Source: a virus. Taken from it: a stretch of DNA of 19,997 nucleotides. Below the pieces are notes generated by a model. The model worked only from the letters and a program-made list of their open reading frames with translations, searched no databases and was not told the DNA's origin. Within the stretch, counting starts at the first letter, position 1. Each line of letters starts with the position of its first letter. The stretch lies in the UHGV virus genome UHGV-0061455. One strand, written 5' to 3'. The translations under genes and the position numbers were made by a program. Positions 325 to 19,363 of the stretch are shown here, piece after piece.

Positions 325-3030
325 ATGGCCTATAGTTGGGAAGAGCATCTGTATCCCGCAGGGACTACTAGCATCTCAGTGAATATTCAGTACTTAGACC
401 GCTCTTATATCTACCTGTACGTAGATAACGAGGAAGTGCTTGACTATACTTGGGAGAGCGACGTGCGCATCCGGTTGGATGCTGCACTTACTAAAGAGAG
501 TAAGGTACTAATTGTACGCCGTACAGCGGCGCATTACCTGTACATTAACTTCAAGTCAGGTGCTCCGTTTATCTCTGAGAACTTAGATACTCAGAATACT
601 CAGTTCCTGCACCTAGCTCAGGAGATGACGGAAGGTCGTAGTATCGAGGGATTCTACGGCGATATTAATATGAACGGCTTCCGCATCATTAATCTGGCAG
701 CAGGAGAAGAGGCTACAGACGCGATTAATAAGGCGCAGTTAGATGAAGTAGATTCTAAGGTAAAGGCGTTGGAGGGTACCTTTATAGGTCATACTAATAG
801 TTACCCATGGTACACCGTTATTGTGTCTCCTACGAAGATCATTGCACCTCCTTACTCGTTTACTAAAGCAGCTGTATATTTGAACGGAGTATGTCAAACT
901 CCGGGATATTCTTACAGTGTAGATAATAATACCATTACCTTAGCAGAGGAAGTTCCCGCGGGAACGCACGTGTTTGTGCGATTAGGGGAGGATATACTGG
1001 ATGCTACCTACGTCACAGTAGTAACTTACGCAGACCTTATTCAGCGTCTTACAGACCCAGACGGTGCAGTTAACAGTCCTGAACTTCAGGTGGCTAGGTG
1101 GAGAGACAACGGTGATGTTCGAGGCTGGGGAGCTAAGGTAGATGGAGGTGCAAACGACTCAGGCGCATTTAATGCGGTAGCCGGTGCACCTGCTCACGTA
1201 CCTAACGGTACATCCCGATGCAGTCCTGGTGTGTTTTCTATAGCTGGGTTGACCGGAGAAGTGAACTCAAAGCTTAAGCAGGTTGCTCCTGCAGGTAACT
1301 TCCTATCCTTCCGTCAGCCTGACGGGGGACGTATCGCTAACCTAGATATTGAATCTAATAAGGGAGGGGTAGTATCTGCACAAGGTCACCAGATTGACGT
1401 TCAGGATGGACGTAACGTTACTCTGGAAAACCTTAACTTTAAAGAAGCAGAGGGAACTGGATTTTCCATCATCACTTACAGTAATACTCTTCCATACCAA
1501 GAAGGGTTCATTGTAAAGGGTATTCGTGGGAAATACAATACATCTGTAGCAAACGCCGATGCAGGCTGTGTACTGTTAGACCGTAATCGTAAGTCGCTGG
1601 TTGACGGCGTTATTGCAACAGGTTACCCTCAGTTCGGAGCAGTAGAGCTTAAGAGTGATGCTAAGTATAACATCACGTCTAATATTATTGGAGATAACTG
1701 TGAGAGTACAGTTTACTTAGGTACTGAAACAGAGGCTACACCTAACGCCAATATCATCAGTAACATTATCTCAAGCAAGCCTGGGTTCAGCGCTGTAGAG
1801 GTAGGCAGAGGCCGCCACAATTTAATGTCTAATGTGCTGGCTGACTATACAGAGTCTACAGCAACATCAGCACACGGTGTGACTATGACGGGCGAGTCTA
1901 ATGTTGCTGATAACATACTCATGATGGGAAGTACCGGGGTTAACTCCATAGGCGGCGCGCAGGCGGCATATAATGCAAGATTCCGTGGCACTGCAAGGAA
2001 CAACTATGCCTCTATCTTCCCACACTACACCGCAACGGGGGTCGTGACTTTCGAGGGAGGTACTGCACGTAACTTTGTAGAGATTAAACATCCCGGCTCC
2101 CGCTCTAGTATTTTCGCGCAGGCTTCCACAATTACAGATAAGGCGACAATTACCGGGGACGTTAACAGTAACGTAGTGCATGCACCGGCACTTGGTCAGT
2201 ACTTCGGCACCATGTCAGGAACCTTCGATTGGCGTATCAAGGATGTTACTATCCCATCTGGAGTATTTGTTACAGCCGACCGATTCAGGTTCATATGCGA
2301 TGGCGCAGTTTCCATGGCTGTTGGCGGGGGGACTACATCTCAGTTGAAACTGTTCAACTCAGACGGTACGGCACGGACACTATCACTGAATCAAAACCAG
2401 TCTATCAGGTTGGATATAGGTTCAGGGAACTACCTGCAGTTCAGCTCTAATGTCCTGACACCTAGTCAGACTAACGCTTACTCATTAGGTAATGCGTCAA
2501 AGGCTTGGGCAGGAGGCACAACGCAGACCGCGTTTACAGTTCTATCAGATGAACGTGCTAAGAGCAAACCCTTGACGCTTGCTCGAGGCTCGTTAGCCGA
2601 TATTATAACTTCAGACGGGGAGCAGGTATACTCGTCTGACGCGGTTCTAGATGCTTGGGCTGAAGTAGATTTGGTACAGTACCAGCTGCTAGATCGTATT
2701 GAAGCGAAAGGTGAAGAAGGTGCCCGCTGGCATTTTGGTGTTCTCGCCCAACGTGCAGTTGAGGCATTCTCCCGTCATGGTCTGGACGCCCATCGGTTTG
2801 CTTTCCTGTGCTATGATGAGTGGGACGACCAGTACGGTAAAGTTCAGGTTGGTGATGGAGAGTATATAGAGGTACTGGAAACACCAGCAGGTAACCGTTA
2901 CGGCATCCGCTACGAAGAGGCTTTGATTCTTGAAGCAGCACTTCAACGTCGTAACTATAGCAGGTTGGTTGATAGTTTCAATAAGTTGTCATCTCGTATT
3001 GATGCTATTGAGGCGGTCTGCGCACCTTAA
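325..3030 (+). CDS. Tail fibre/tailspike: T7 gp17-like N-terminal anchor, central beta-helix (pectate-lyase-like, putative depolymerase), C-terminal intramolecular chaperone (peptidase S74-like) domain
   Basis: 901-aa ORF; GGAG RBS 7 nt upstream of ATG 325. N-terminal ~150 aa resemble the T7 gp17 adaptor domain. Central region shows repetitive Asn/Gly/Ser-rich pattern typical of right-handed beta-helices. Motif SDERAK near aa 741 resembles the auto-cleavage site of endosialidase-type chaperone domains. Confidence 0.85.
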   Translation: MAYSWEEHLYPAGTTSISVNIQYLDRSYIYLYVDNEEVLDYTWESDVRIRLDAALTKESKVLIVRRTAAHYLYINFKSGAPFISENLDTQNTQFLHLAQEMTEGRSIEGFYGDINMNGFRIINLAAGEEATDAINKAQLDEVDSKVKALEGTFIGHTNSYPWYTVIVSPTKIIAPPYSFTKAAVYLNGVCQTPGYSYSVDNNTITLAEEVPAGTHVFVRLGEDILDATYVTVVTYADLIQRLTDPDGAVNSPELQVARWRDNGDVRGWGAKVDGGANDSGAFNAVAGAPAHVPNGTSRCSPGVFSIAGLTGEVNSKLKQVAPAGNFLSFRQPDGGRIANLDIESNKGGVVSAQGHQIDVQDGRNVTLENLNFKEAEGTGFSIITYSNTLPYQEGFIVKGIRGKYNTSVANADAGCVLLDRNRKSLVDGVIATGYPQFGAVELKSDAKYNITSNIIGDNCESTVYLGTETEATPNANIISNIISSKPGFSAVEVGRGRHNLMSNVLADYTESTATSAHGVTMTGESNVADNILMMGSTGVNSIGGAQAAYNARFRGTARNNYASIFPHYTATGVVTFEGGTARNFVEIKHPGSRSSIFAQASTITDKATITGDVNSNVVHAPALGQYFGTMSGTFDWRIKDVTIPSGVFVTADRFRFICDGAVSMAVGGGTTSQLKLFNSDGTARTLSLNQNQSIRLDIGSGNYLQFSSNVLTPSQTNAYSLGNASKAWAGGTTQTAFTVLSDERAKSKPLTLARGSLADIITSDGEQVYSSDAVLDAWAEVDLVQYQLLDRIEAKGEEGARWHFGVLAQRAVEAFSRHGLDAHRFAFLCYDEWDDQYGKVQVGDGEYIEVLETPAGNRYGIRYEEALILEAALQRRNYSRLVDSFNKLSSRIDAIEAVCAP

Positions 3031-3044
3031 CTTAAGGAAACAAT

Positions 3045-3344
3045 ATGGCTAAGGCGGCTACAAAGAGTCGCCTCGCTGAACTGCATAAGATGTTCACCGA
3101 GGTGCTTATTTCAGAATTGCAGCAGGCTAAGGATGAAGAAATCCCGATGCCTGCTGCAGATAAATCAGTTATCGCTAACTTCCTTAAGAGCAATAACATC
3201 ACAGCGGATGCAGACTCTACGGAGATGCAGGACCTGCGTGATGAGTTCCAAGATGAGTTAGCAGAGAAACGTAAAGCACGGGCGTCTGAATTACTAGCGA
3301 AAGCTGGTGCAGACCCTGAAGACCCTCTAGCAGGTATTCTATAA
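3045..3344 (+). CDS. Putative terminase small subunit (DNA maturase A)
   Basis: 99-aa highly charged, helical-looking protein directly upstream of the large terminase. Assignment by size and position only. Confidence 0.4.
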   Translation: MAKAATKSRLAELHKMFTEVLISELQQAKDEEIPMPAADKSVIANFLKSNNITADADSTEMQDLRDEFQDELAEKRKARASELLAKAGADPEDPLAGIL

Positions 3345-3661
3345 TGAAGGTAAAACTTAACCCTTACCCCGTTACAGTAGATATTGTATTTAACCGGGAC
3401 GATTTCATTAAGCGCTACAAGAAGGTTCGTGGGTATTCCCCTGATATCGAAGGTTGCGGTGGGATGACTTCTTACCTATCGAGCGATGATTTGCTCATAG
3501 GGGTATTCAATTCCAAAGTGGGTACGCTTGTGCATGAACTTAATCATGCCCTGATTCACACTATGGAGTACGTAGGGTTAAGTATTACACCTCAGACATC
3601 CGAGGCGTACTGCTACTTAATGGATAGCGTGCTGGAACAGGCGCTCCCTAAACTCAAATAA
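3344..3661 (+). CDS. Hypothetical protein with HExxH zinc-metallopeptidase-like motif
   Basis: 105-aa ORF whose ATG overlaps the upstream stop (ATAATGA). Contains VHELNHALIH (HExxH plus a third His 4 residues later) and an upstream GCGG segment. Family unknown. Confidence 0.5.
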   Translation: MKVKLNPYPVTVDIVFNRDDFIKRYKKVRGYSPDIEGCGGMTSYLSSDDLLIGVFNSKVGTLVHELNHALIHTMEYVGLSITPQTSEAYCYLMDSVLEQALPKLK

Positions 3662-3672
3662 AGGAAGATACG

Positions 3673-5496
3673 GTGATTAGTCAAACTACACTGAACAGAT
3701 TGAAGCTAATATCTCAACGTACTACAGTAATGAATGACAGTCCCCGTACTATCCCCAAGGACCAGCGCGAGGAAGTGGCGCTTATGATGGCGGTAACTCT
3801 GAAGGATTTTAGAGAGTTCGCATACTTAGGTATGAAGTTCCTAGGTTTTGACCTTACAGAGATGCAGCGCGATATAGCAGACTTCATGCAGCATGGTCCG
3901 CGTAAGCGCATGGTAGCAGCACAGCGTGGTGAAGCTAAGTCTACGCTGGCTGCCCTGTACGCTGTTTGGCGGTTAATCCAGGACCAGAGTACCCGTATTC
4001 TTATTGTATCTGGTGGTGAGAAGCAGGCGTCTGAAGTAGCTACGCTTGTTATCCGTATGATTGAGACGTGGCCTTTACTATGCTACCTCAAGGCTGATAG
4101 TACCCGAGGTGATCGCACATCTTATGAAGGCTACGACGTTCACTGCGACCTTAAGCCTCTGGATAAGTCCGCTAGCATTGCGTGCGTAGGTATTACTGCG
4201 CAGCTGCAGGGTAAGCGTGCTGACCTGCTGATTCCAGATGATATCGAAACAACCAAGAACGGCCTAACGCAGACTATGCGTGAGCAGTTGCTGAACATCT
4301 CTAAAGACTTCGCCGCTATCTGTACTCATGGTGATACCTTGTACTTGGGAACACCTCAGACTAAGGATAGTATCTACAAAACCCTGCCGGGCCGTGGCTT
4401 TGAAGTTCGAGTCTGGCCTGGACGTATACCGAACGCAGAGATGCGTGAACGTTACGGAGAAACCCTAGCCCCGTATATTCAAACCCTCATCGACGCAGGG
4501 TACAAAGAGACTGGCTTCGGGTTAGACGGTACGTTAGGTGAGTGCACAGATAAAGGACGTTACAACGAAGAAGCGCTGATTGAGAAGGAACTGGACTTTG
4601 GTCCTGAAGGTTTCCAACTCCAGTACATGCTTGATACAACTATGTCCGATGCGCTGCGTACCAAGATTAAACTCTCCGATATGCTCGTGTACTCTGGTTC
4701 TCATGACTCTGCCCCAGACCGCTTAAGCTATATTGCTGATAAGCGCTACATGTTCGCAGAGGAGCATGAAGGTATCCGTGGCCAGTTACTGTACCAGCCG
4801 GCTAGCTATGGCGAGCACATGCTCCCGTACCAGCATAAGCTGATGGTAATCGACCCGGCAGGGTGCGGCGGGGATGAAGTGTCTTACGCCTGTGGCGGCG
4901 CAGCTAACTCATACATACACCTGTTCTCTGTAGGCGGCTTCCAAGGTGGCATTAGTACCGAGAACGTGGATAAGTTTATCGACATTGCTATAGAGATGGG
5001 AATCTCTGATATCTTCATCGAAAGCAACATGGGTCACGGTACAGTAGAAATGCTGTTCCAGAACCGCTTGAAGGAGCGTAGGCTTCCGGGTATCGGTGTC
5101 AGAGGCGGTTATAACACGTCTCAGAAGGAGAAGCGTATCATTGATACTATCTCCCCTGTTACGCGTCGTCATCGCTTTGTGGTGCATTCTAGGGCGCTTA
5201 CTGACGATATCCAAAGCTGTATGCAGTACAGTCGTGATAAGCGCTGGTTGTACAGTGCGTTCCAGCAGTTACAAGGAATTACCTATGACCGAGGCAGCCT
5301 TGCTAAGGATGACCGTGCAGACGCAGTGGCTATGCTTACTGCTGAACTGAACGGCTTCTTGGTAGAGGATGAGAAGGTTGTAGCGGAGAAGGAAATCAAG
5401 AAGAAGGCAATGGAGTTCCTAGCGAATCCGCTAGGGTGGACTGATGTAGATACCAGACCTAAGCGGCGAGGCACTGCATCGCGTATGAGTTACTAG
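3673..5496 (+). CDS. Terminase large subunit (T7 gp19-like)
   Basis: 607 aa; GTG start 5 nt after AAGGAAG RBS. Segments ILIVSGGEKQASE, ACVGITAQLQGKRADLLIPDDIE, LYLGTPQT and LMVIDPAGCGGDEVSYACGG align by eye with T7 gp19 ATPase and nuclease motifs. Confidence 0.9.
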   Translation: MISQTTLNRLKLISQRTTVMNDSPRTIPKDQREEVALMMAVTLKDFREFAYLGMKFLGFDLTEMQRDIADFMQHGPRKRMVAAQRGEAKSTLAALYAVWRLIQDQSTRILIVSGGEKQASEVATLVIRMIETWPLLCYLKADSTRGDRTSYEGYDVHCDLKPLDKSASIACVGITAQLQGKRADLLIPDDIETTKNGLTQTMREQLLNISKDFAAICTHGDTLYLGTPQTKDSIYKTLPGRGFEVRVWPGRIPNAEMRERYGETLAPYIQTLIDAGYKETGFGLDGTLGECTDKGRYNEEALIEKELDFGPEGFQLQYMLDTTMSDALRTKIKLSDMLVYSGSHDSAPDRLSYIADKRYMFAEEHEGIRGQLLYQPASYGEHMLPYQHKLMVIDPAGCGGDEVSYACGGAANSYIHLFSVGGFQGGISTENVDKFIDIAIEMGISDIFIESNMGHGTVEMLFQNRLKERRLPGIGVRGGYNTSQKEKRIIDTISPVTRRHRFVVHSRALTDDIQSCMQYSRDKRWLYSAFQQLQGITYDRGSLAKDDRADAVAMLTAELNGFLVEDEKVVAEKEIKKKAMEFLANPLGWTDVDTRPKRRGTASRMSY

Positions 5497-5504
5497 AAGG
5501 GGCA

Positions 5505-5900
5505 ATGGCCTCAATCATAGCAGCTAAGGATATTTCCAAGCAATATGAGATTGTAGGTAAATGCGAAGATACGTTCCGGCTGATAGGGTCTCGCTACCCT
5601 ATCGGCTTCAACGATAAGGCTAACATTGCAGAGAGTACTCTGTGGAACATGTCCTTACTGGCAATCTATCTCAAGGGGGAGGGCTACCCTGAATCCTTTG
5701 CTTCGGAGTACTTCGTCCGTGACGGGGAGCTTCAGGCGGAATTCGTACTATCCTTCCAAGAAGTAATCAACCTCGGCTACCAGCGCCTCAGTTCATGCTA
5801 CGGCAAGTTCGATGAAGCCCCCGGCACTGAGTTCGACGCAGCAATTCAACGTATGCAGGATGCGCTACGCGCAGCTACAGACGATATCAAAGACTATTAA
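5505..5900 (+). CDS. Hypothetical protein
   Basis: 131-aa ORF with GAAGGGG RBS, tightly packed after the terminase; no recognisable motif. Confidence 0.5.
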   Translation: MASIIAAKDISKQYEIVGKCEDTFRLIGSRYPIGFNDKANIAESTLWNMSLLAIYLKGEGYPESFASEYFVRDGELQAEFVLSFQEVINLGYQRLSSCYGKFDEAPGTEFDAAIQRMQDALRAATDDIKDY

Positions 5901-5910
5901 GGAGTTAATC

Positions 5911-6093
5911 ATGGCAGCAGCAAAAGCAACTCAGGCGCAGTTACAGGAACCTCTGCGCACAACTAACATCGTAGGCAAGGACTTGTACCAACTGCTTACT
6001 CAGCCTCAAGGCAAGGAGCAGGTAGGTCCGTCTATTGATGCGCTTATCTCGGCCCTGGAAGCCGCTGTAGCAGCAGTTAAAGCAGCAGCCTAA
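5911..6093 (+). CDS. Hypothetical small protein (Ala/Gln-rich, helical)
   Basis: ATG 5911 preceded by GGAG immediately after the upstream stop. The longer track ORF from 5812 overlaps the preceding gene and lacks an RBS, so the internal start is preferred. Confidence 0.4.
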   Translation: MAAAKATQAQLQEPLRTTNIVGKDLYQLLTQPQGKEQVGPSIDALISALEAAVAAVKAAA

Positions 6094-6506
6094 TGAAGTC
6101 ATTGGTCGCTGGGTTAATCCTCGCTACGGCTCTTACAGGCTGTTCAGCGACCTCTGCATTGACAGGTCTCATTGGCTCTAAGCCAGACCTGTCTGTGCAA
6201 GCTGGCGCAGAGAACACTAAACAAACTGTAGGCCTTAACGGCAAGTCCGACTCCAGCACGGACAACGAGACAACTATTAAAGATTCTAACGTAGGCACGC
6301 TGGATACTTCAACTAAGAAGCAGTCCAGTTCAGTTACTACTGGAACCATTAACACGGAGCGGGTACAGGTCGTAAACAATGACGGTACTAGCATAATTCT
6401 GGCAGGACTGGCAGGTGCAGCGGTTCCAATCGCAATCCTCATCATCGTCCTGTTGTTCCGCAAGCTCGGAAGAACTAAGGACGGGATCGATGAGTCTACC
6501 AATTAA
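6093..6506 (+). CDS. Putative unimolecular spanin (outer-membrane lipoprotein signal plus C-terminal transmembrane anchor)
   Basis: N-terminus MKSLVAGLILATALTGC has a signal peptide with LTGC lipobox; Ser/Thr-rich middle; C-terminal hydrophobic helix IILAGLAGAAVPIAILIIVLLF followed by basic residues. This topology matches T1 gp11-type u-spanins. ATG overlaps the upstream stop (TAATG). Confidence 0.55.
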   Translation: MKSLVAGLILATALTGCSATSALTGLIGSKPDLSVQAGAENTKQTVGLNGKSDSSTDNETTIKDSNVGTLDTSTKKQSSSVTTGTINTERVQVVNNDGTSIILAGLAGAAVPIAILIIVLLFRKLGRTKDGIDESTN

Positions 6507-6738
6507 CGGGGAAACTATCACCCGTGTAGGAACAAACGTATCTGTCGCTACTATGGGTGGCGGATGGATGGCAGACGTAATGTCTTGGAACTGGGGTACA
6601 ATCTCGTTCATCGTCGGTACGGTAATGGCTGTACTGACCTTCGCATGGAACGCGTACTACAAGCACAAAGAGTATAAGCTCAAGGAAAAGGCACTGGAGA
6701 AGGGGCTGGCATACTATAAGCATAAGCAACAAGGTTAA
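6490..6738 (+). CDS. Putative holin (possibly pinholin-like)
   Basis: 82 aa from ATG 6490. One strongly hydrophobic helix GTISFIVGTVMAVLTFAW preceded by a weaker hydrophobic segment, then a highly charged Lys-rich C-terminus. Sits immediately upstream of the endolysin. Confidence 0.45.
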   Translation: MSLPINGETITRVGTNVSVATMGGGWMADVMSWNWGTISFIVGTVMAVLTFAWNAYYKHKEYKLKEKALEKGLAYYKHKQQG

Positions 6739-6784
6739 AGCTGCACTGGCAGGGGCAACCCTGCTGGGCGGCAGTATCACTGCT

Positions 6785-7258
6785 GTGATTCAGCATAACG
6801 AGGGGTTGTCCCTGACGGCCTACAAAGATTCAGCCGGTGTACCTACCATCTGTTATGGTGAGACTAAAGGCGTACAGATAGGCCAGAAACGCACGCTAAC
6901 GCAATGTCAGGAGCAACTGATACGTTCGGCAGAGGGGCACGCTAAGGCGCTTGACGGCCTTCCTATGACGCTTACAGACGTACAGTTACTTGGCGCTCTG
7001 GACCTGACCTATAACATCGGTATCTCTGGATTCAAGAACAGTACAGTAAAGCGCAAGCTAATGCAAGGCGATACTAAAGGTGCCGCTCAGGCTGTCTTAG
7101 CGTGGCGCTACATCACCGTTAAAGGTAAGAAGTACGACTGTAGTATAGAAGGTAATAAGGTCTGCTACGGGCTCTGGAAGCGCCGTTTGTGGGAATCCCA
7201 AGCTATTGGCAACGAATTTAAATCAGTGCAAGCAGCATTAGCTGCTATTCCTAAGTAA
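6785..7258 (+). CDS. Endolysin, T4-lysozyme-like muramidase (glycoside hydrolase family 24), probably SAR-type with an N-terminal extension upstream of the listed start
   Basis: EGLSLTAYKDSAGVPTICYGET has the E-x8-D-x5-T catalytic spacing of T4/lambda/P22 lysozymes. The frame is open upstream to 6638 and encodes KVKAALAGATLLGGSITAVI, a Gly/Ala-rich hydrophobic stretch resembling a signal-arrest-release domain, but with no ATG/GTG/TTG in frame. Coordinates given are the conservative GTG start. Confidence 0.8.
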   Translation: MIQHNEGLSLTAYKDSAGVPTICYGETKGVQIGQKRTLTQCQEQLIRSAEGHAKALDGLPMTLTDVQLLGALDLTYNIGISGFKNSTVKRKLMQGDTKGAAQAVLAWRYITVKGKKYDCSIEGNKVCYGLWKRRLWESQAIGNEFKSVQAALAAIPK

Positions 7259-7267
7259 GGATTAGGT

Positions 7268-9013
7268 ATGACCCTAGTAAAGTTAGTTGAAGTAGAACTG
7301 GATACCTTGCACGTAGACCACTCTGGGTTAGTGCTTAATACGTACTTGAATGACAACGGGTACAACCTGCGTCAATGGGTAGACTCTGATGCAGCAGATG
7401 CACGAGAAGGAATGCAAGCTGCTATTGACTATATTGAGTCAGTTGGTGGAGGTACGTTAATTATCCCAGATGGTACTTGGATTCTTAACAGTATCAGTAC
7501 TGGCCCAGTGTCCGGGCACAGTGGACTCATTCAGCTTAAGAACAATGTAAGCATTAAGCTGGACGGTGTAGTTAAAGTAGGCCCTGCCTTAGCTAATAGT
7601 TCCTTCCAGGTCTTCGTCGGCTTCACTGATGCCAATCCAGCTAACTCTGGTAACTTGGACAACTGTCACATCTTTGGTGAAGGTAGCATTGACTTTGGAG
7701 GTTATGATTTTGCTGACTCAGGTCACTTGCGCAATGGTATCGCATTTGGTAAGGGGTATAACTGTTCAGTAGATGGCATTACGTTCATTAACGGTGACAT
7801 TACATGGGCTATAACACTTGGGTGGAACGGATATGGTTCAGACTCTTATGTCCGCAACTGCCGCTTCATTAACCTCATCCAAAGTAACGTGAACCGCGAC
7901 CATAGTACAGTGTACGTTAACTGCCCGTTCAGTGGGGTCACTGACTGCACCTTCCGCGCAAGCTCTGCGCGTGCCAAGGTAATAGCATGCACTGTGGAGT
8001 TACATCAACACGACACCTACTACCGCAATAGCAGCATCTCAGGATATACGCGTGGGTGCTATGTAGCGCTGCATGGTTCTGAGTCTGTTGGTGCAGGTAC
8101 GTACCTGTATAATGCCGAAGTCTCTGGGGTCATCGGAGATATCTCTGGTCAGGCCGTTATATTAGCTGCAGGCCCAGACGCTATAGCTACTACGCACATT
8201 CATGGCCTTACGGTATCTAACTGCCGGTTCACTGCTGGGAACTACCCGGGCATGTGCAGCTTCATTGACTTCTTCCAAGATGGTAACTCTGACTCAAGTC
8301 AGTACCTTATCAATCACGTTACGGTTAAGGGGTGCAGCTTCATCGTAGACCGCAGCCGTTCTCTTAGTGCAGCCATTACCCTGAACGGGAGTATTCAAGG
8401 TATCACCTTCCAGGATAACTTCTTCGATGTTAAGCAGGCTATGGTATCGGAACTCCCTAGCGGACGCACTGTGCAGTTAGAGCGCTTTAACTGGGATGCT
8501 AGCAATATCATCGGCGGCGATAACACTGGTACTCGTACTGGCCTGAACCTGTTTGAGACTCGGCGAGTATCCAGTATGTTGCGCTGTAACATTCAACTGC
8601 ATATGCGTCAGCCTAGTGTGGACCTGTACAGCTTTATGTACTTCCGTCCCGGTATCTCCTTCAGTGAGTGTACTATAGAGGTTCTACCTTACAACTGGGG
8701 TACTAGTTCAGGTAATGCACTGTTCTTTGAAGAGGGTGGCGTTCCTCCCCTGAACGTACATTGCAGCTTCCCTAAACAAGTATCTGTAACTCTCGCATCT
8801 GGTTCGAACGTGCAACGCGCTACGGTATCAGGTAACTACGCTTGGGTTGCCCGTGCAGACGCTCTGGATAGACGTGGTATTTCAGGTCAGTTCGATGCCC
8901 CTGCTAGTTACGCAGGTAGCAGCAACGGTCAGTTAACAGGCTTAGGTTGGCAGCTTGATGGGCTTCAACATACGTATGACCACAACGTGCTTCTTACAGG
9001 GCGCAGTAACTAA
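7268..9013 (+). CDS. Second tailspike, beta-helix polysaccharide depolymerase (pectate-lyase-3-like), no T7-type anchor domain
   Basis: 581 aa; AAGGA RBS. N-terminus DAREGMQAAIDYIESVGGGTLIIPDGTWIL resembles the start of pectate-lyase-fold phage depolymerases. Internal repeats (NCHIFGEGSIDF, NCRFINLIQSN, VTDCTFRAS, SNCRFTAG, KGCSFIVD) are typical beta-helix rungs. Confidence 0.75.
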   Translation: MTLVKLVEVELDTLHVDHSGLVLNTYLNDNGYNLRQWVDSDAADAREGMQAAIDYIESVGGGTLIIPDGTWILNSISTGPVSGHSGLIQLKNNVSIKLDGVVKVGPALANSSFQVFVGFTDANPANSGNLDNCHIFGEGSIDFGGYDFADSGHLRNGIAFGKGYNCSVDGITFINGDITWAITLGWNGYGSDSYVRNCRFINLIQSNVNRDHSTVYVNCPFSGVTDCTFRASSARAKVIACTVELHQHDTYYRNSSISGYTRGCYVALHGSESVGAGTYLYNAEVSGVIGDISGQAVILAAGPDAIATTHIHGLTVSNCRFTAGNYPGMCSFIDFFQDGNSDSSQYLINHVTVKGCSFIVDRSRSLSAAITLNGSIQGITFQDNFFDVKQAMVSELPSGRTVQLERFNWDASNIIGGDNTGTRTGLNLFETRRVSSMLRCNIQLHMRQPSVDLYSFMYFRPGISFSECTIEVLPYNWGTSSGNALFFEEGGVPPLNVHCSFPKQVSVTLASGSNVQRATVSGNYAWVARADALDRRGISGQFDAPASYAGSSNGQLTGLGWQLDGLQHTYDHNVLLTGRSN

Positions 9014-9466
9014 GTAATAAACCTGTGGGTGCCTGAGGGTGCCCTGGGATTTCCTGGGATTGCACGTGTAAACGTACACCTAGAAAATATTATACTCACG
9101 CGAGGCCCTCCCTCACCCGACCAAGGCGTCAATCCCCCCATGGGGTAGGCCTCTGGGAATTCACAGGGTGGGGTAGTGGGAGAGGGTGCTAATCCCTCTG
9201 CGTATACTGTGTGCTGCGCTAGACGCTCTGTATCGCTCTGTATCGCTCTGTATCGCTCTGTGAGTCTATAGCAGTACCTAAGGGACACTTCGTGTCTCTA
9301 CGCTGTACAAGGCAAGCCTCTGTGCTTCTCTGTGCTCTCTCTTATGAGGGCAGGAGGGGGCGCATGCTTGCCTATTTTTATGCACGCTGTGCAGTACTGT
9401 ATGCCGCTGCTATACCTCTGTGTATGCGCAGTAGCTTACCTCTTTTGCCTCTAGGCTATGCAATGC
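9014..9466. other. Non-coding genome-terminus or terminal-repeat-like region
   Basis: About 450 nt with no credible ORF between the last late gene and the first early promoter. Contains tandem short repeats, CTCTGT-type motifs, a CCCCATGGGG palindrome and C-rich/G-rich inverted arms. T7-like genomes have short repeat arrays next to their terminal repeats. Confidence 0.5.
9224..9261. repeat. Tandem repeat, about 3.8 copies of 10-bp unit CGCTCTGTAT
   Basis: Read directly: cgctctgtat cgctctgtat cgctctgtat cgctctgt. Related CTCTGTG motifs recur at about 9318-9345 and 9415. Confidence 0.9.
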
Positions 9467-9495
9467 TTGACGCAGGGTTAGCGCTGTGATATGCT
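9467..9495 (+). promoter_or_regulatory. Candidate sigma70-type early promoter P0 (TTGACG-N17-TATGCT)
   Basis: -35 TTGACG at 9467-9472, 17-nt spacer, -10 TATGCT at 9490-9495; about 100 nt upstream of the first early gene. Weaker -10 than the other promoters. Confidence 0.35.
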
Positions 9496-9601
9496 GATAG
9501 TAGTTGTAAGGTTCTTTAACAATCCGGGGAATCAACGACGCAGTGCAGCGAGTCACTACTCAACACTATATAGTAGGGGATATTGGAATACACTATGAAG
9601 G

Positions 9602-10345
9602 ATGCATACAATGCAAGAACGTAATCTTAAGAAGAGTAGTAAGCGTATAGACGGTAAGGTACGCAGTGGTTGGATAGATGTAGATACAGGGGAGTTCTTC
9701 AACACTAAAGCAGAGGCGAATGTAATGCGTAAGATGCGTAGTGATAAGAAGCCTGTAGCTAGGCGTAATGTAATAGCAGTAGCTGATGCAACGCTTAGAA
9801 TGAAGGATGTAGTGCTAGCTTGGGCATTCAGTAATGATTTCCAGCTTAAACATTACAACTTAATGAATGAGTACATGGAAGGGCGCAGTAAGGGCTATGC
9901 AGGGCTTAAGACTATGCAGCGTGCTGGTACTGTACTGGAAGCAGTTAACGTAGCTACAGCGTGGTACAAGCAGTATGACGCTAGGAAGGATAAACGCTAT
10001 CTGGATGATGCACTCTACACCAATCCTACATGGTGTGAGGATAGGGATTGGGTAGACTCTGAGCCATTGGATGAGCTTAGCTTAGAGATAAATGCATTAC
10101 TGGACTCTAGACATGCTGAGTTCTTAGCGAATGAGCCTAAACCTGAGCTTACTGCTAAGGAGTATGAGCGTAGTATACTCAGTAGGGATAAAGCTACTTA
10201 TATACACAGTAAGGGTGCTGTAACAGTGTATGAGGAGAAGCAGGAGAGTAAGAAAGGTTTAACTGAGCATCAACCTAGATGGTCACAGGATGAGTTGTTT
10301 GATTGGACGCAGCGTAACACTACACAACAATACATTAGGGGATAA
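9602..10345 (+). CDS. Early protein, function unknown
   Basis: 247-aa ORF, visibly more A+T-rich than the late genes. ATG 9611 has better RBS spacing (AAGGA 9 nt upstream) than ATG 9602, so the true start may be 9611. Confidence 0.6.
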   Translation: MHTMQERNLKKSSKRIDGKVRSGWIDVDTGEFFNTKAEANVMRKMRSDKKPVARRNVIAVADATLRMKDVVLAWAFSNDFQLKHYNLMNEYMEGRSKGYAGLKTMQRAGTVLEAVNVATAWYKQYDARKDKRYLDDALYTNPTWCEDRDWVDSEPLDELSLEINALLDSRHAEFLANEPKPELTAKEYERSILSRDKATYIHSKGAVTVYEEKQESKKGLTEHQPRWSQDELFDWTQRNTTQQYIRG

Positions 10346-15916: not shown

Positions 15917-16381
15917 ATGAGCACTTGCATAGATCATGGTAAGTGTAAAAGCTTATCACCTGAAGGGTATTTATTAGTTACACGTCCTGAGTATTTCAGC
16001 AGAGGTTGTAAGACTAGAAGCATTGCTAAGCATAGGCTAGTACTTCTTACAAAGCTGGGTATAAACTGGTGGGATGAAGAGGCTAAGGATTTAGTAGCGC
16101 TCCACACTTGCGATAATCCTAGATGTATTAATCCCGAGCATCTGGTAGCAGGAACCCGTGGGGACAATAACAGAGATAGGGCAGAAAGAGGGAGAAGTGC
16201 TAAGAAGGTTCCTAGTAAGTGGAAGCTTACCCCTACTGATTGCAAAGCTATAATTAACTCTTATAACAAGAAAGATAGGGAGAATAACAAAAGCGCCTTA
16301 TCAGCACGTTTCAAAGTAGACCGTAAGATAATCACTCAAGTTTTAGAAGGAACATATAGTGGCCTCGATTTTAATCTTTGA
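15917..16381 (+). CDS. HNH homing endonuclease
   Basis: 154 aa; GGAGG RBS. HTCDNPRCINPEHLVAGTRGDNNRD matches the HNH_3-type motif. Gene is visibly more A+T-rich than the flanking helicase and polymerase genes. Confidence 0.8.
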   Translation: MSTCIDHGKCKSLSPEGYLLVTRPEYFSRGCKTRSIAKHRLVLLTKLGINWWDEEAKDLVALHTCDNPRCINPEHLVAGTRGDNNRDRAERGRSAKKVPSKWKLTPTDCKAIINSYNKKDRENNKSALSARFKVDRKIITQVLEGTYSGLDFNL

Positions 16382-17504
16382 TATTGAAACTCAAAACGTG
16401 CCTTACTTTGGAGGGGTAGCTACTCCGTACTGCCCTGAGAACTACATCGTAGAATCAGGGTTCAGGATTGATAGAACTAATCCAGATGGTACAGTAACGT
16501 GCAGTGATGTAGGCAGCGTACGTTATGAATCAAGAGAAGAGTTCTTGCAGGCAGACCCTAAGCAGTGGTTACCTATTCAGGAAGATACATGGTTAATCGT
16601 GGCCCATAACGCTGCGTATGAGATTAGCTGGGCACTGACGTTTGCTAGGGAAGAGTTTGAGGCATTCCTGAAAAGAGGTGGACGTGTATTTGATACAATG
16701 CAGGGGCAATACATCGCCTCTGACTTCCAAGACCTTTACCCGTCACTGGATGAGACGGCCCCCAAGTATGGTGGCAGTCACAAGGTTGATGGTGTTAAGC
16801 TGCTGTGGCAGCAGGGAGTATTAACAGCAGATATTGACCCAGTACTACTGCATGAGTACCTAACAGGGCCGGAAGGAGACATCGTCAATACTGCACTGTG
16901 CTTCTACGGGCAATGTGCATTGTTCGCTGAGCGTGGGCAGATGCCTATGGTCTGGGAAAGGATGGATAGTGTAGTAGCCCTAGCCTACTGTGAGTTTAAT
17001 GGTGTGTACGTAGACATGCCTACAGCCAGAGCTAACCAGAAGGAGCAGGAGGACGCTATCGCAGTACTGAAGCAGACTCTGCAAGGCTTCTTGCCGGAAC
17101 TACCTGAAGGCTTTGAGTTCAACTGGAACAGTGGATACCACATGTCCGCACTGGTGTATGGCGGTATGGTTAAGTACAAGTGCAAGGTCCCGTATGACCC
17201 GCCGAAGTATGTGAAGAAGGAAGTGCAGGATGGGGTATATAAGTCAGGCCGTAACAAGGGCATGCCTAAGTACATTAAAGTAGACACAGACGAGCAGGCT
17301 ATGAAGTGGGGCGAGCGTTTGTATAAGTTCGAAGGACTTGTATGTATTAAGGACCTGCCGGCAGTACTACAAGAGAAGTATGCGGAGCGAGGAGAGTTCC
17401 GAGGTGCTCAGACATTAGCAGACGGTACAGCTGTATTCAGTACAGGTACGGATGCTATGAAAGAACTGGCTAACTATTTTATTGGGATTGAAGACGATGA
17501 GTAA
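16359..17504 (+). CDS. DNA polymerase (family A), N-terminal fragment with 3'-5' exonuclease domain
   Basis: 381 aa from GTG 16359 (GAAGGA RBS 7 nt upstream), overlapping the HNH gene end. Exo I motif ILIFDIETQ and Exo II VAHNAAYEISWAL align with T7 gp5 (IVSDIEANA, VFHNGHKYDVPAL). ORF stops where the methyltransferase gene begins. Confidence 0.8.
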   Translation: MASILIFDIETQNVPYFGGVATPYCPENYIVESGFRIDRTNPDGTVTCSDVGSVRYESREEFLQADPKQWLPIQEDTWLIVAHNAAYEISWALTFAREEFEAFLKRGGRVFDTMQGQYIASDFQDLYPSLDETAPKYGGSHKVDGVKLLWQQGVLTADIDPVLLHEYLTGPEGDIVNTALCFYGQCALFAERGQMPMVWERMDSVVALAYCEFNGVYVDMPTARANQKEQEDAIAVLKQTLQGFLPELPEGFEFNWNSGYHMSALVYGGMVKYKCKVPYDPPKYVKKEVQDGVYKSGRNKGMPKYIKVDTDEQAMKWGERLYKFEGLVCIKDLPAVLQEKYAERGEFRGAQTLADGTAVFSTGTDAMKELANYFIGIEDDE

Positions 17505-18204
17505 TTTTATAAACATTATGCACGGTGACTGTCTGGAGTTGATGAAGGAAATTCCAGCTAAAAGTGTAGATATGGTACTTTGCGACTTACCTTATGGGAC
17601 TACTCAATGTAAATGGGATGTGATTATAGATTTTAAAATGTTATGGGAAAACTACGGTAGGGTAGTTAAGGATACGGGCGCTATAGTCCTAACGGCGGCG
17701 CAGCCGTTCACAAGTACGCTGGTAGTAAGTAATATTAAGAACTTCAAATATCAATGGGTTTGGAAGAAATCAAGACCTACAGGACATCTTAATGCTAAGA
17801 AGCAACCGTTACGGAACACTGAAGACATTCTCGTCTTCTATAAGTCGCAGTGTACGTATAATCCTCAAGGTACACGAGAAACAGACGTCATGGTGTCACG
17901 TACAAACAGGGGCAATTACGGGGAATGTTCAAAAACCACACGGCAGACGGTAACCGGTTACCCTACTACGATTCTGGAATTTGCATCTGAAGTAGGGGAA
18001 CACCCAACACAAAAGCCAGTCGCACTTATGGAGTATCTAATTCGTACATATACAAACGAAGGTGATACTGTTCTAGACAATTGCATGGGCAGTGGTACTA
18101 CGGGGGTAGCAGCTAAGAATACACTCCGTAATTTTATAGGTATCGAAAAGGATGCTACATACTACGATATAGCATTCAATCGCATTCATAATTCAAACGT
18201 GTAA
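17497..18204 (+). CDS. DNA methyltransferase (N6-adenine/N4-cytosine, beta-class)
   Basis: 235 aa from ATG 17497 (overlaps the Pol-N stop). N-terminus MSNFINIMHGDCLELMKEIPAKSVDMVLCDLPYG carries a DLPY variant of motif IV (DPPY). HPTQKP and DNCMGSGTTGVAAK...NFIGIEKD (motif I) are family signatures. Visibly A+T-rich versus neighbours. Confidence 0.85.
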   Translation: MSNFINIMHGDCLELMKEIPAKSVDMVLCDLPYGTTQCKWDVIIDFKMLWENYGRVVKDTGAIVLTAAQPFTSTLVVSNIKNFKYQWVWKKSRPTGHLNAKKQPLRNTEDILVFYKSQCTYNPQGTRETDVMVSRTNRGNYGECSKTTRQTVTGYPTTILEFASEVGEHPTQKPVALMEYLIRTYTNEGDTVLDNCMGSGTTGVAAKNTLRNFIGIEKDATYYDIAFNRIHNSNV

Positions 18205-18211
18205 GGTATGT

Positions 18212-19363
18212 ATGACTACTCAAGCGTCTTCATTCTTTAAAGCATACAACGAACTAACCCTGCGCCAGAAGGACTTAGGCTTCTATGAGGTTAAGGACTA
18301 CAACAAGGATGGTAGCCTGCGTAAGACTACGGGGATGCTTCCTTATGTAATACCTCAGAAGGAAGACGGTAGTGGCATCATTCATCACCGCCTGAATCAC
18401 TGTTCAACTACAACCGGGAGGCTGTCAGCGTCTAACCCGAATATGCAGCAGCTGCCGCGTGAGTCTAAGGTTAAGCAGATTCTTCGCAGTCGCTATGGTG
18501 AGCAGGGCATGATTGCACAGTGCGACTACTCAGCTATGGAAGTTGTAATGGGCTGTGTAATTACCGGTGATAAGAAGCTCCTGTCCCTGCTTGAAGATGG
18601 TACAGACATGCACTGCTACCGCTTAGCATTCCAAGAGGGTATGCCATATGAAGAAGTCTACGAGCTTTGCCATAACCCGGATGCACTGAACCATAAAGAA
18701 TGGAAGAAGAAACGAACAGCAATCAAAACGTTCAGCTTCGCAGCGCAGTACGGAGCTTCCGCTAAAGGATTGGCGTTCGCCTCTGGTGCCAGCCTGAAGG
18801 ATGCTGAGAAGTTCTTAGCTAACGAAGAAGCCCTGTTCCCTGAGTCTATTAAGTATCGCGATGTAATCGCAGCAGAAGTAAACCGCACTGCATTACTGGA
18901 ACCTATCCGTCGTGAGCAGTCAGATGACGGTAGCTGGCGTATCTACCGTGAGGGATACTTCACTGCACCTTGCGGTACTCGCTACCGCTTCCGTCAGAAA
19001 CCTGTGTGGCGTGAAGGGAAGCAGGTCATGGACTTCAAGCCTACAGAGATGGCGAACTATCCGTTTCAGGGCTCAGGTTCCCTGCTTATGCTGATTGCGA
19101 TGGGTATGATTCTGCGTGCAGGGTTAGCGGATAACTGGATGGACGGTAAGTGGTGCATCCTTGCCACTGTGCATGATGCCGTCTATGCAGATTGTGCAGA
19201 CGAAGAGACAGCTAATAAGGTAGGGCAACTTATCAAGCGCTGTATGGAAGGGGCACGCGACCGTATGCTAGCACTGTGGCCTGAGTTTGGTATCCTTAAA
19301 GATGTAAAGTTCCCAGCAGAAGCCGGGCTTGGTAAATCCTTCAAGGAAGAGTACACGATTTAA
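18212..19363 (+). CDS. DNA polymerase (family A), C-terminal fragment with polymerase domain
   Basis: 383 aa. TTTGRLSASNPNMQQLP (O-helix-preceding motif), DYSAMEV (motif A), RTAIKTFSFAAQYGAS (motif B) and VHDAV (motif C) match Pol I/T7 gp5. Confidence 0.85.
   Translation: MTTQASSFFKAYNELTLRQKDLGFYEVKDYNKDGSLRKTTGMLPYVIPQKEDGSGIIHHRLNHCSTTTGRLSASNPNMQQLPRESKVKQILRSRYGEQGMIAQCDYSAMEVVMGCVITGDKKLLSLLEDGTDMHCYRLAFQEGMPYEEVYELCHNPDALNHKEWKKKRTAIKTFSFAAQYGASAKGLAFASGASLKDAEKFLANEEALFPESIKYRDVIAAEVNRTALLEPIRREQSDDGSWRIYREGYFTAPCGTRYRFRQKPVWREGKQVMDFKPTEMANYPFQGSGSLLMLIAMGMILRAGLADNWMDGKWCILATVHDAVYADCADEETANKVGQLIKRCMEGARDRMLALWPEFGILKDVKFPAEAGLGKSFKEEYTI

What the first reader, a model, noticed from the sequence alone, without database searches (positions are those of the whole stretch)
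325..9013. Two beta-helix receptor-binding proteins: anchored fibre with chaperone domain plus anchorless spike after the lysis cassette
The first protein has a gp17-like N-terminal anchor, a beta-helix and a C-terminal SDERAK-type auto-cleaving chaperone motif. The second (7268-9013) is a pectate-lyase-type beta-helix with no anchor domain, located after the lysis genes as the last late gene before the genome terminus. This matches dual-depolymerase podophages in which the second spike docks on the first, and implies two glycan specificities. The chaperone domain predicts a proteolytically matured fibre.
Basis: partly seen in the sequence, partly recalled or inferred. Interest (0 to 1): 0.5.

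Follow-up and report, generated by a model that had tools for sequence, protein, structure and literature searches.

The report
Branched two-spike tail of an E. coli podophage
This phage carries two sugar-cutting tail spikes, a capsule lyase fixed to the tail and an O18 O-antigen hydrolase that most likely plugs into it; the layout is already well described, and only this enzyme pairing is new.

Summary
ORF 325-3030 (901 aa) has a T7 gp17-type anchor, a conserved branching domain, a KflA-type (K5 lyase) beta-helix and a Peptidase_S74 chaperone domain with S741-DERA-K746. ORF 7268-9013 (581 aa) follows spanin, holin and endolysin and is the last gene before about 590 nt of non-coding DNA and the early genes. 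It has no anchor domain.

- Spike 2 is not a pectate lyase. It is an HK620-type endo-N-acetylglucosaminidase module (TM 0.90 to 6g0x). The catalytic Asp and Glu are conserved. It is 70-75% identical to EP75 TSP1, shown experimentally to be O18A-specific, and to the K1ind spikes.
- Spike 2 is anchorless but not naked. Its N-terminus, MTLVKLV, fits the KP34-virus docking heptapeptide MALxxLV.

The window is a Slopekvirinae phage (relatives PAS7, P64441, phiKDA1, KP34, HRP29). Its tail matches the published "group B KP34virus" anchor-branch system. The likely host is an E. coli O18 strain with a K5-like capsule. K5 specificity is uncertain, because the lyase is only 53-54% identical to known K5 lyases. 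This is a new member of a known kind, of modest interest.

The parts
325..3030 (+). RBP1: anchored, branched tail fibre/spike pre-protein (901 aa, 97.5 kDa; predicted mature form about 79.4 kDa)
325..744 (+). RBP1 aa 1-140: T7 gp17-type N-terminal tail anchor
   Evidence: Pfam PF03906 covers aa 13-140, E 8.8e-12. aa 1-239 match HRP29 gp44 (8es4_G), E 2.7e-84. The region is 47-67% identical to RBP1 of PAS7, P64441, ECO104 4-5-2 and SFN6B.
787..999 (+). RBP1 aa about 155-225: branching (docking) domain, preceded by a helical neck at aa 130-155
   Evidence: It is homologous to HRP29 gp44 residues 142-242, PhiM1 gp47 175-299, 23sh gp9 164-251 and the K1-specific capsule depolymerase 9k4a. Many columns are invariant across relatives whose distal parts differ. 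AF2 predicts a beta domain at aa 157-223. KP34 RBP1 aa 186-242 was called a T4gp10-like fragment in PMC6872550.
1000..1128 (+). RBP1 aa 226-268: module junction and linker, with the motif PELQvARWRDnGDVRGWGA shared by K5-lyase-type spikes that carry other anchors
   Evidence: Similarity to Slopekvirinae relatives ends at about aa 225. Similarity to 9vvr_A and the K5-lyase family begins at about aa 205-245.
1132..2544 (+). RBP1 aa about 270-740: KflA-type polysaccharide lyase beta-helix plus C-terminal trimerisation stalk. E441, K443 and Y464 (nt 1645-1647, 1651-1653, 1714-1716) align with KflA E206, K208 and Y229.
   Evidence: 2x3h E 7e-141. Foldseek 2x3h_A E 3e-41. 53-54% identity to the KflA-like protein and to the 820-aa E. 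coli homologue, and 76-77% to the Leclercia prophage subclade. The three residues are invariant in 11 family members.
2545..3027 (+). RBP1 aa 741-901: C-terminal intramolecular chaperone (Peptidase_S74) with the putative Ser741/Lys746 dyad in SDERAK (nt 2545-2562)
   Evidence: Pfam PF13884. 3gud E 2.9e-19, 3gw6 E 1.3e-15, 4uw8 E 7.5e-9. The 2x3h chain ends at the residue aligned with S741. The motif S[DN]xRxK sits at the same place in all 10 homologues examined.
3045..5496 (+). Intervening packaging genes: terS (3045-3344), a 105-aa HExxH ORF (3344-3661) and terL (3673-5496)
6093..7258 (+). Lysis cassette: Rz-like spanin 6093-6506, holin (ORF 6415-6738, probable start 6490) and lysozyme-type endolysin 6785-7258
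7268..9013 (+). RBP2: anchorless tailspike (581 aa, 62.6 kDa), an HK620/EP75-TSP1-type endo-N-acetylglucosaminidase module
7268..7393 (+). RBP2 aa 1-42: N-terminal docking module. The heptapeptide MTLVKLV (nt 7268-7288) fits MALxxLV.
   Evidence: PMC6872550. 44 of 53 related loci fit M[AST]Lxx[LIV][VIT]. It is the only one of 202 ATG starts in the window that fits M[AST]Lxx[LIV][VI]. P0022 and P0042 share the roughly 40-aa module. It is disordered in the monomer AF2 model.
7394..8956 (+). RBP2 aa 43-563: beta-helix catalytic body. D211 (7898-7900) and E244 (7997-7999) correspond to HK620 D339 and E372. F336 (8273-8275) lies at the position of HK620 G468 and EP75 F509.
9014..9601 (.). Non-coding stretch between the last late gene and the first early gene. 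It is the presumed terminal or terminal-repeat region, with sigma70-like promoters at 9467 and 9583 and a 3x GCTCTGTATC repeat.

Best explanation
The window is the right end, joined to the left end, of a Slopekvirinae (phiKMV/KP34-like) coliphage genome. Its receptor-binding apparatus is the branched 'anchor-branch' type.

RBP1 is expected to form a trimer. Its gp17-like N-terminus (aa 1-140) would fix it to the tail at the six fibre positions. After a short helical neck comes a small beta domain (aa about 155-225), which is the docking site for RBP2. RBP1 then continues into a KflA-type beta-helical polysaccharide lyase. Folding and trimerisation of the lyase's C-terminal stalk would be driven by the S74 intramolecular chaperone (aa 741-901). 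The chaperone would then cut itself off at Ser741 using a Ser741/Lys746 dyad, leaving a mature spike of about 79 kDa.

RBP2 is encoded as the last late gene, after the lysis cassette. It would form a trimer of an HK620-type endo-N-acetylglucosaminidase body. It would be held on the virion only through its short N-terminal peptide (MTLVKLV, within a roughly 40-aa module), bound to the RBP1 branching domain.

The virion would therefore carry two enzymes. One is a beta-eliminating lyase for an acidic capsule, most likely K5 heparosan or a close relative. The other is a hydrolase for the unbranched O18A-type O-antigen.

Shown here: the domain homologies, the folds, the conserved catalytic and cleavage residues, the docking motif and the synteny. 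Inferred: physical docking, autocleavage, stoichiometry and the exact substrates.
For: Anchor and branching domain:
- Pfam and PDB hits, with 8es4_G E 2.7e-84 over aa 1-239.
- Conservation up to about aa 225 across relatives whose distal parts differ.
- HRP29 gp44 is described as the tailspike adapter and is purified as a gp44/gp52 complex.

Docking peptide:
- MALxxLV is the motif defined for the second RBP of KP34viruses (PMC6872550).
- 44 of 53 IMG/VR relatives fit the pattern, and RBP2 is the only fitting start in the window.

Lyase:
- 2x3h E 7e-141 and Foldseek 2x3h_A E 3e-41.
- E441, K443 and Y464 are invariant with KflA E206, K208 and Y229.

Chaperone:
- PF13884, 3gud and 3gw6 all match.
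- SDERAK aligns with SDARDK or SDARCK of K5 lyases, and the 2x3h chain ends at that Ser.

Spike 2:
- 2vji E 4e-136 and TM 0.90.
- D211 and E244 correspond to EP75 D384 and E417 and to HK620 D339 and E372, the same numbering as in PMC8217332.
- It is 70.6% identical to EP75 TSP1, whose O18A specificity was shown experimentally, and 74.6% to the K1ind3 spike from an O18:K1:H7 host.
- It has Phe at the Gly-to-Phe position that PMC8217332 proposes excludes the branched O18A1 glucose.

Synteny: RBP1 follows the internal virion protein and RBP2 follows the endolysin in P64441, PAS7, ECO104 4-5-2, SFN6B and about 50 IMG/VR contigs.
Against: - No complex could be modelled, because the tools predict monomers only.
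- The N-terminal 40 aa of RBP2 have pLDDT below 50.
- The heptapeptide has Thr instead of the consensus Ala at position 2.
- The T4gp10 likeness of the branching domain was not tested directly. It rests on homology to KP34-type and HRP29-type proteins.
- The lyase body is only 53-54% identical to the KflA-like protein and to the 820-aa E. coli homologue (ElmA-like by length, from memory), which are 63% identical to each other. It belongs to a separate subclade with a Leclercia prophage protein at 76%, so the substrate may not be K5.
- The KflA residue numbers E206, K208 and Y229 come from my memory of Thompson et al. 2010, which could not be read here. They are corroborated only by finding E, K and Y at those positions in the KflA-like P0217.
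- The RBP1 model is poor outside the beta-helix (mean pLDDT 72).
Confidence: 0.85

Rival explanations
1. Same architecture, but RBP1 is not K5-specific. Its lyase would cut a different acidic capsule or exopolysaccharide, for example one made by Leclercia or Enterobacter-like hosts or a non-K5 E. coli K antigen. The pairing would then be 'unknown capsule plus O18A'.
For: The lyase body is 76-77% identical to a Leclercia sp. prophage protein and to two metagenomic proteins, but only 51-56% to every K5-lyase-type protein. Those proteins cluster at 60-96% among themselves. A K5-lyase-like tail fibre (ES17) bound heparan sulfate but showed no lyase activity.
Against: KflA-like proteins and the 820-aa E. 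coli homologue (ElmA-like by length, from memory) are themselves only 63% identical. If both are K5 lyases, as I recall but could not check here, substantial divergence is compatible with K5 specificity. The proposed catalytic residues and 15 charged or aromatic positions in the helix are invariant. O18 strains commonly carry K1 or K5 group 2 capsules (my own knowledge, not checked here).
Confidence: 0.4
2. RBP2 is attached directly to the tail (nozzle or adaptor) or is not a virion component at all. In the second case it would be a soluble enzyme released at lysis, which is why it sits after the lysis genes.
For: It has no recognisable anchor domain. It lies next to the lysis genes. Its N-terminus is disordered in the monomer model. 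Free RBP2 producing halos has been seen when incorporation fails in engineered phages.
Against: The position after the endolysin is the conserved RBP2 slot of the whole subfamily. In PAS7 the protein in that slot is the O103 specificity determinant. In HRP29 it forms a complex with the gp44 adapter. The docking heptapeptide is conserved although the bodies are unrelated.
Confidence: 0.07
3. One of the two spikes is an inactive relic that only binds or does nothing. Truncated or non-enzymatic RBPs of this kind occur in KP34virus groups A and C and in K1E.
For: Such decay is documented in the family. Several relatives with a long RBP1 have lost RBP2.
Against: Both ORFs are full length. Both keep their catalytic residues, the cleavage dyad and confident beta-helix folds.
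Confidence: 0.08

Closest known systems
KP34virus (Drulisvirus/Slopekvirinae) group B dual-RBP 'anchor-branch' system (Latka et al. 2019, PMC6872550; validated in PMC13352976)
   Same: The gene positions match: RBP1 after the internal virion protein and RBP2 after the endolysin at the genome end. RBP1 has a gp17-type anchor plus a branching domain. RBP2 has the N-terminal heptapeptide MALxxLV (here MTLVKLV). Both RBPs carry beta-helical enzymes.
   Different: The host genus is different, and so are the enzymes: a K5-lyase-type module with an S74 chaperone and an O-antigen endoglycosidase, instead of two Klebsiella capsule depolymerases. Position 2 of the peptide is Thr. The terminase is only about 75% identical.
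Shigella phage HRP29 (Buco) gp44 adapter / gp52 tailspike complex (PDB 8ES4)
   Same: RBP1 aa 1-239 match gp44 residues 1-242 (E 2.7e-84). An O-antigen tailspike of P22/Sf6/HK620 ancestry has lost its head-binding domain and hangs on a truncated T7-like fibre.
   Different: gp44 stops after the branching domain (260 aa). Here the same module continues into a 660-aa lyase plus chaperone, so the adapter is itself a second spike.
Coliphage K5A/K1-5 K5 lyase KflA (PDB 2X3H) and Kayfunavirus 843-aa K5-type spikes (9VVR)
   Same: The beta-helix lyase fold, the E/K/Y residues, the C-terminal stalk and the S74 chaperone with SDxRxK are shared.
   Different: Identity is only 53-54%, and the window protein sits in a separate subclade. 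The N-terminal attachment module also differs: a Slopekvirinae anchor plus branch here, an SP6-type short peptide in K1-5, and a T7-type anchor in Kayfunavirus.
EP75 TSP1 / K1ind1-3 tailspikes and HK620 gp9 (PDB 2VJI)
   Same: The catalytic body is shared, at 70-75% identity to EP75 and K1ind and 44% to HK620. The Asp and Glu are conserved, and the Phe at the O18A/O18A1 discriminating position is present.
   Different: The N-terminal attachment differs: a Kuttervirus TSP1 N-domain, a 63D-like N-domain, or the P22-type head-binding domain PF09008. Here there is only a 42-aa docking module.
Coliphage K1F gp17 endosialidase, and P64441 RBP1
   Same: All have a gp17-type anchor, a capsule-degrading enzyme and an S74 chaperone in one polypeptide. 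P64441 is a close relative with an endosialidase in the RBP1 slot and its own RBP2.
   Different: K1F has no branching domain and no second RBP. The enzyme is a sialidase, not a lyase.

Membership tests
KP34virus-type branched dual-RBP system (group B) | RBP1 has a T7 gp17-like N-terminal anchor | tested here: met
   PF03906 covers aa 13-140, E 8.8e-12. 8es4_G E 2.7e-84.
KP34virus-type branched dual-RBP system (group B) | A branching (T4gp10-like fragment) domain lies directly after the anchor | tested here: inconclusive
   aa about 155-225 are clearly homologous to the corresponding domain of HRP29 gp44, PhiM1 gp47, 23sh gp9 and the K1-specific capsule depolymerase 9k4a. Similarity to T4 gp10 itself was not detected or tested.
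KP34virus-type branched dual-RBP system (group B) | RBP2 is encoded separately, after the endolysin, as the last gene before the genome end | tested here: met
KP34virus-type branched dual-RBP system (group B) | RBP2 has the N-terminal conserved heptapeptide MALxxLV | tested here: met
   MTLVKLV has one conservative change, A2T. Relatives also show MSL and MTL.
KP34virus-type branched dual-RBP system (group B) | RBP2 physically binds RBP1 in the virion | not testable with these tools
   Only monomer prediction is available. Virion proteomics or cryo-EM is needed.
Peptidase S74 / C-terminal intramolecular chaperone domain | A C-terminal domain homologous to the endosialidase and GA-1 chaperones | tested here: met
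   PF13884 E 1.9e-9. 3gud E 2.9e-19 and 3gw6 E 1.3e-15.
Peptidase S74 / C-terminal intramolecular chaperone domain | A Ser-Lys dyad in an S-D-x-R-x-K motif at the boundary of the mature protein | tested here: met
   S741-D-E-R-A-K746 is aligned with the same motif in 10 homologues. The 2x3h chain ends at the aligned Ser. The dyad assignment comes from my knowledge of Schulz et al. 2010.
Peptidase S74 / C-terminal intramolecular chaperone domain | Autoproteolytic release after trimer folding | not testable with these tools
   An experiment is needed, such as SDS-PAGE of wild type against S741A.
KflA-type K5 (heparosan) lyase | A single-stranded right-handed beta-helix homologous to 2X3H | tested here: met
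KflA-type K5 (heparosan) lyase | The proposed catalytic residues (KflA E206, K208, Y229) are present | tested here: met
   E441, K443 and Y464 are invariant in 11 sequences. The residue list is from memory of Thompson et al. 2010 and could not be read here.
KflA-type K5 (heparosan) lyase | Specificity for heparosan [-4GlcA-beta1,4-GlcNAc-alpha1-] | not testable with these tools
   Identity to K5-lyase-type proteins is 53-54%, and the protein sits in a separate subclade.
HK620-type tailspike endo-N-acetylglucosaminidase | The beta-helix body is homologous to HK620 gp9 residues 111-710 | tested here: met
   E 4e-136. TM 0.90.
HK620-type tailspike endo-N-acetylglucosaminidase | The catalytic Asp339 and Glu372 are present | tested here: met
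   D211 and E244. The residues are named in PMC8217332.
HK620-type tailspike endo-N-acetylglucosaminidase | A P22-type N-terminal head-binding domain (PF09008) | tested here: not met
   It is absent. Many homologues have it. Only the catalytic module is shared, not the P22-like attachment.
   No pectate-lyase Pfam family matched at E <= 0.01. The nearest characterised relatives are hydrolases. Only the general parallel beta-helix fold is shared (ranks 30-36).

The most novel reading that the evidence does not exclude
The two spikes may be a two-layer tool for one host rather than a host-range expander. On an O18:K5-type ExPEC cell, the RBP1 lyase would clear the group 2 capsule. The RBP2 hydrolase, mounted on the same fibre node, would then process the underlying O18A O-antigen. 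Infection would then need both enzymes on the same cell.

The relatives hint at a wider pattern in E. coli Slopekvirinae, though they do not establish it. P64441 has a K1 endosialidase in the RBP1 slot. PAS7 has an O103 spike and HRP29 a Shigella O-antigen spike in the RBP2 slot. The RBP1 extension slot may be used for capsules and the RBP2 slot for O-antigens.
Probability: 0.35. Interest if true: 0.45.

Novelty: new member of a known kind. Interest (0 to 1): 0.28.

Why it matters
This adds an E. coli example to a tail architecture worked out mainly in Klebsiella phages. Modules from four different phage lineages have been recombined onto one Slopekvirinae scaffold: a KflA-type lyase with its S74 chaperone, and an HK620/EP75-type O18 hydrolase.

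It gives concrete, cheap predictions:
- Host serotype: O18A, with a K5-like capsule.
- RBP1 is processed from 97.5 kDa to about 79 kDa.
- RBP2 is held on the virion by its N-terminal heptapeptide.

It also offers two enzymes that could be useful against ExPEC. It does not change how such tails are understood.

Tried and rejected
- A direct read of the KflA structure paper (PMC2911314) and the kflA cloning paper (PMC94548) failed, because neither is held. The catalytic residues are therefore cited from memory and checked indirectly.
- A single-sequence locus search with RBP1 aa 1-240 found only the window's own contig plus two weak loci. An alignment-based search was needed to obtain 69 loci.
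- I tried to infer the specificity of P64441 RBP2 to test the 'RBP2 slot = O-antigen' idea. It has no characterised relative, with at most 27% identity over most of its length to Vibrio and Aeromonas phage proteins.
- Literature searches for a Slopekvirinae K5 phage, or for an O18:K5 statement, gave nothing usable.
- The pectate-lyase label for spike 2 is rejected.
- A soluble, non-virion RBP2 is considered unlikely (see rivals).
- I considered a 'distal versus proximal reach' argument for sequential action and dropped it. Both enzymatic bodies start at about the same node and have similar lengths.
- The third fold search and the representative-protein search were not used, because sequence homology to solved structures already settled the folds.

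Full report
**What is in the window.** All sizeable ORFs lie on the + strand. From left to right they are:
- the 3' end of an internal virion protein (2-322, PHROG 342);
- RBP1 (325-3030);
- terS (3045-3344) and a 105-aa ORF (3344-3661);
- terL (3673-5496) and two small ORFs;
- an Rz-like spanin (6093-6506), a holin (within 6415-6738) and a lysozyme-type endolysin (6785-7258);
- RBP2 (7268-9013).

About 590 nt without a convincing ORF follow. This stretch carries sigma70-like promoters at 9467 and 9583 and a short tandem repeat. Early and replication genes come next: primase-like, DnaB-like helicase, HNH endonuclease, methylase and DNA polymerase A.

At the DNA level the nearest records are Escherichia phages ECO104 4-5-2, vB_EcoP_P64441 and vB_EcoP_PAS7, followed by Enterobacter phiKDA1-like, SFN6B and KP34-like phages. 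All are Slopekvirinae. The window is 100% identical to IMG/VR contig UViG_3300045988_002189. Both spike proteins already sit in public collections as 'hypothetical protein'.

**RBP1 (901 aa) has four parts.**
1. aa 1-140 are a T7 gp17-type anchor (PF03906, E 8.8e-12).
2. A helical neck follows (AF2 helix 130-155). After it comes a beta domain at aa about 155-225.
   - aa 1-239 match HRP29 gp44 (8es4_G) at E 2.7e-84.
   - aa 143-240 match gp44 residues 142-242, PhiM1 gp47, a 307-aa 'tail fiber gp9' (23sh) and the K1-specific capsule depolymerase 9k4a.
   - This N-terminal module is 47-67% identical across P64441, PAS7, ECO104 4-5-2 and SFN6B, with dozens of invariant positions. Similarity stops abruptly at about aa 225.
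3. A linker carries the motif PELQvARWRDnGDVRGWGA, which is also found in K5-lyase-type spikes on other anchors. After it, aa about 270-740 are a KflA-type lyase.
   - 2x3h matches at E 7e-141 over aa 295-741, and 9vvr_A at E 6e-202.
   - In the AF2 model, pLDDT is mostly above 90 (lowest 10-residue block 77) over aa 270-560, and the top Foldseek hit is 2x3h_A.
   - Positions equivalent to KflA E206, K208 and Y229 are E441, K443 and Y464. They are invariant in 11 family members. Their identity as the proposed catalytic residues comes from my memory of Thompson et al. 2010. It is corroborated only by finding E, K and Y at exactly those positions in the KflA-like protein P0217.
4. aa 741-901 are an S74 intramolecular chaperone.
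   - PF13884 matches, as do 3gud (E 2.9e-19), 3gw6 (E 1.3e-15) and 4uw8.
   - S741-DERA-K746 is aligned with SDARDK, SDARCK or SDERAK in every homologue examined.
   - The crystallised KflA chain ends at the aligned Ser.
- Release of 160 or 161 residues (18.1 kDa) would reduce RBP1 from 97.5 kDa to about 79.4 kDa.

**RBP2 (581 aa).**
- aa 43-563 match HK620 tailspike residues about 171-693 (2vji, E 4e-136).
- The AF2 model (pLDDT 88.5) superposes on 6g0x with TM 0.90.
- Pfam finds Phage_spike_2, and a sub-threshold match to HK620_9_C. It finds no pectate-lyase family, no PF03906 and no PF09008 head-binding domain.
- The protein is 74.6% identical to the K1ind3 tailspike (host O18:K1:H7) and 70.6% to EP75 TSP1.
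- EP75 TSP1 was shown experimentally to produce halos on O18A and to block adsorption to it. It had no activity on O18A1, O18B or O18B1. HK620 gp9 is an endo-N-acetylglucosaminidase specific for O18A1 (PMC8217332).
- In my alignment D211 and E244 fall on EP75 D384 and E417 and on HK620 D339 and E372, exactly the pairs named in that paper. The only position that is Gly in HK620 and Phe in EP75 (G468/F509) is Phe336 here.
- RBP2 is therefore a hydrolase module of the O18A subtype. The 'pectate-lyase' label is correct only as a fold superfamily.

**How RBP2 is attached.**
- Its first 42 residues have no counterpart in HK620, EP75 or K1ind. They are low-confidence in the monomer model.
- They begin MTLVKLV. 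Latka et al. defined MALxxLV as the universally conserved N-terminal heptapeptide of the second RBP of KP34viruses. They proposed that it docks on the T4gp10-like fragment of the first RBP (PMC6872550).
- The branching-domain/peptide pairing has since been validated by phage engineering in KP32 and K11, with KP34 modules used as donor parts (PMC13352976).
- 53 IMG/VR relatives have an ORF of at least 400 aa starting just after the endolysin. Of these, 44 fit M[AST]Lxx[LIV][VIT], which is 19 of 25 distinct peptides. Several of the nine exceptions differ at a single position.
- In the window, RBP2 is the only one of 202 ATG-initiated candidate starts that fits.
- Two metagenomic proteins (P0022, P0042) share the roughly 40-aa N-terminal module but carry different HK620-like bodies. 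The module therefore behaves as a portable attachment unit.
- HRP29 gp44, the closest solved relative of the RBP1 N-terminus, is described as a tailspike adapter and is purified as a gp44/gp52 complex.
- In PAS7 the protein in the RBP2 slot is the O103 specificity determinant.
- Docking in this particular phage remains an inference.

**Position at the genome end.**
- 23 of 26 related contigs that terminate downstream do so 0-520 nt after the RBP2 stop.
- SFN6B ends 22 nt after its spike.
- The window simply runs through the junction, as a permuted or concatemeric assembly would.
- The jump in GC and AT skew at about 9000-9500 fits a switch from late to early genes.

**Specificity and host.**
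- The O18A assignment of RBP2 is fairly strong.
- The K5 assignment of RBP1 is weaker. In the helix-plus-stalk region the window protein is 53-54% identical to a KflA-like protein and to an 820-aa E. coli chromosomal homologue (ElmA-like by length, from memory). Those two are 63% identical to each other. The window protein is 76-77% identical to a Leclercia prophage protein and to two metagenomic proteins.
- I put K5 or heparosan at about 55-60%.
- An O18 host with a K5-like group 2 capsule would explain the pairing.
- Whether the enzymes serve two alternative hosts or two layers of one host cannot be decided here.

**Comparison and verdict.** This is the 'group B KP34virus' anchor-branch architecture (PMC6872550). 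HRP29 gives it structural precedent, and close E. coli relatives share it: P64441 has an endosialidase plus a second RBP, and PAS7 has a short RBP1 plus an O103 spike. At least 15 of the related IMG/VR loci combine an RBP1 of 500 aa or more with an RBP2. What is new is the particular module combination in an uncultivated coliphage. The finding is a new member of a known kind, of modest interest.

Noticed in passing
window 6716-6787: The codons in frame upstream of the endolysin GTG (6785) encode ISISNKVKAALAGATLLGGSITAV. This is homologous to the hydrophobic, SAR-like N-terminus MSISNKVKAALAGTSLLGASIAMV of the P64441 endolysin. Here, however, the start codon is ATA instead of ATG, and no ATG, GTG or TTG lies between the preceding stop and 6785. 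Either the endolysin starts at a non-canonical codon or it has lost its membrane-tethering segment.
   Followed up: partly
window 3344-3661: A 105-aa ORF with an HExxH motif (VHELNHAL) and PHROG 1365 of unknown function lies between terS and terL. P64441 and PAS7 have no gene at that position.
   Followed up: partly
window 9222-9260: A threefold tandem repeat of GCTCTGTATC lies in the non-coding stretch after RBP2. It may be part of the terminal repeat or the packaging region.
   Followed up: no
window 15917-19363: The DNA polymerase region looks interrupted. It contains an HNH endonuclease (15917-16381), a 381-aa ORF without a Pfam hit (16359-17504), an N6/N4 DNA methylase (17482-18204) and then a DNA_pol_A C-terminal part (18212-19363).
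   Followed up: no
protein P0022 (Logan contig, 1935 nt) compared with window 7268-9013: A 581-aa sibling spike is 82-88% identical over aa 1-200 and then switches to an HK620-proper-like body. It has Gly at the O18A/O18A1 discriminating position. This indicates recombination inside the beta-helix, not only at the anchor/body junction.
   Followed up: partly
loci L015, L060, L069, L071 (IMG/VR relatives): Several relatives with a long RBP1 (794-889 aa) have no ORF of at least 400 aa starting just after the endolysin. L069 and L071 still have about 3.6 kb of sequence downstream. The dual and single-long-RBP states therefore seem to interconvert within the subfamily.
   Followed up: partly
window 9602-10345: The first early ORF (247 aa) has no Pfam or PHROG match. 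Similar N-termini occur at the same position in L009 (MQERNLKKSSKRIDG) and, more loosely, in P64441 (244 aa).
   Followed up: no
window 6093-6506: The spanin has an N-terminal lipobox (LTGC) and a C-terminal transmembrane segment in one polypeptide. It therefore looks like a unimolecular spanin rather than an Rz/Rz1 pair. Its 3' end overlaps the holin start.
   Followed up: no
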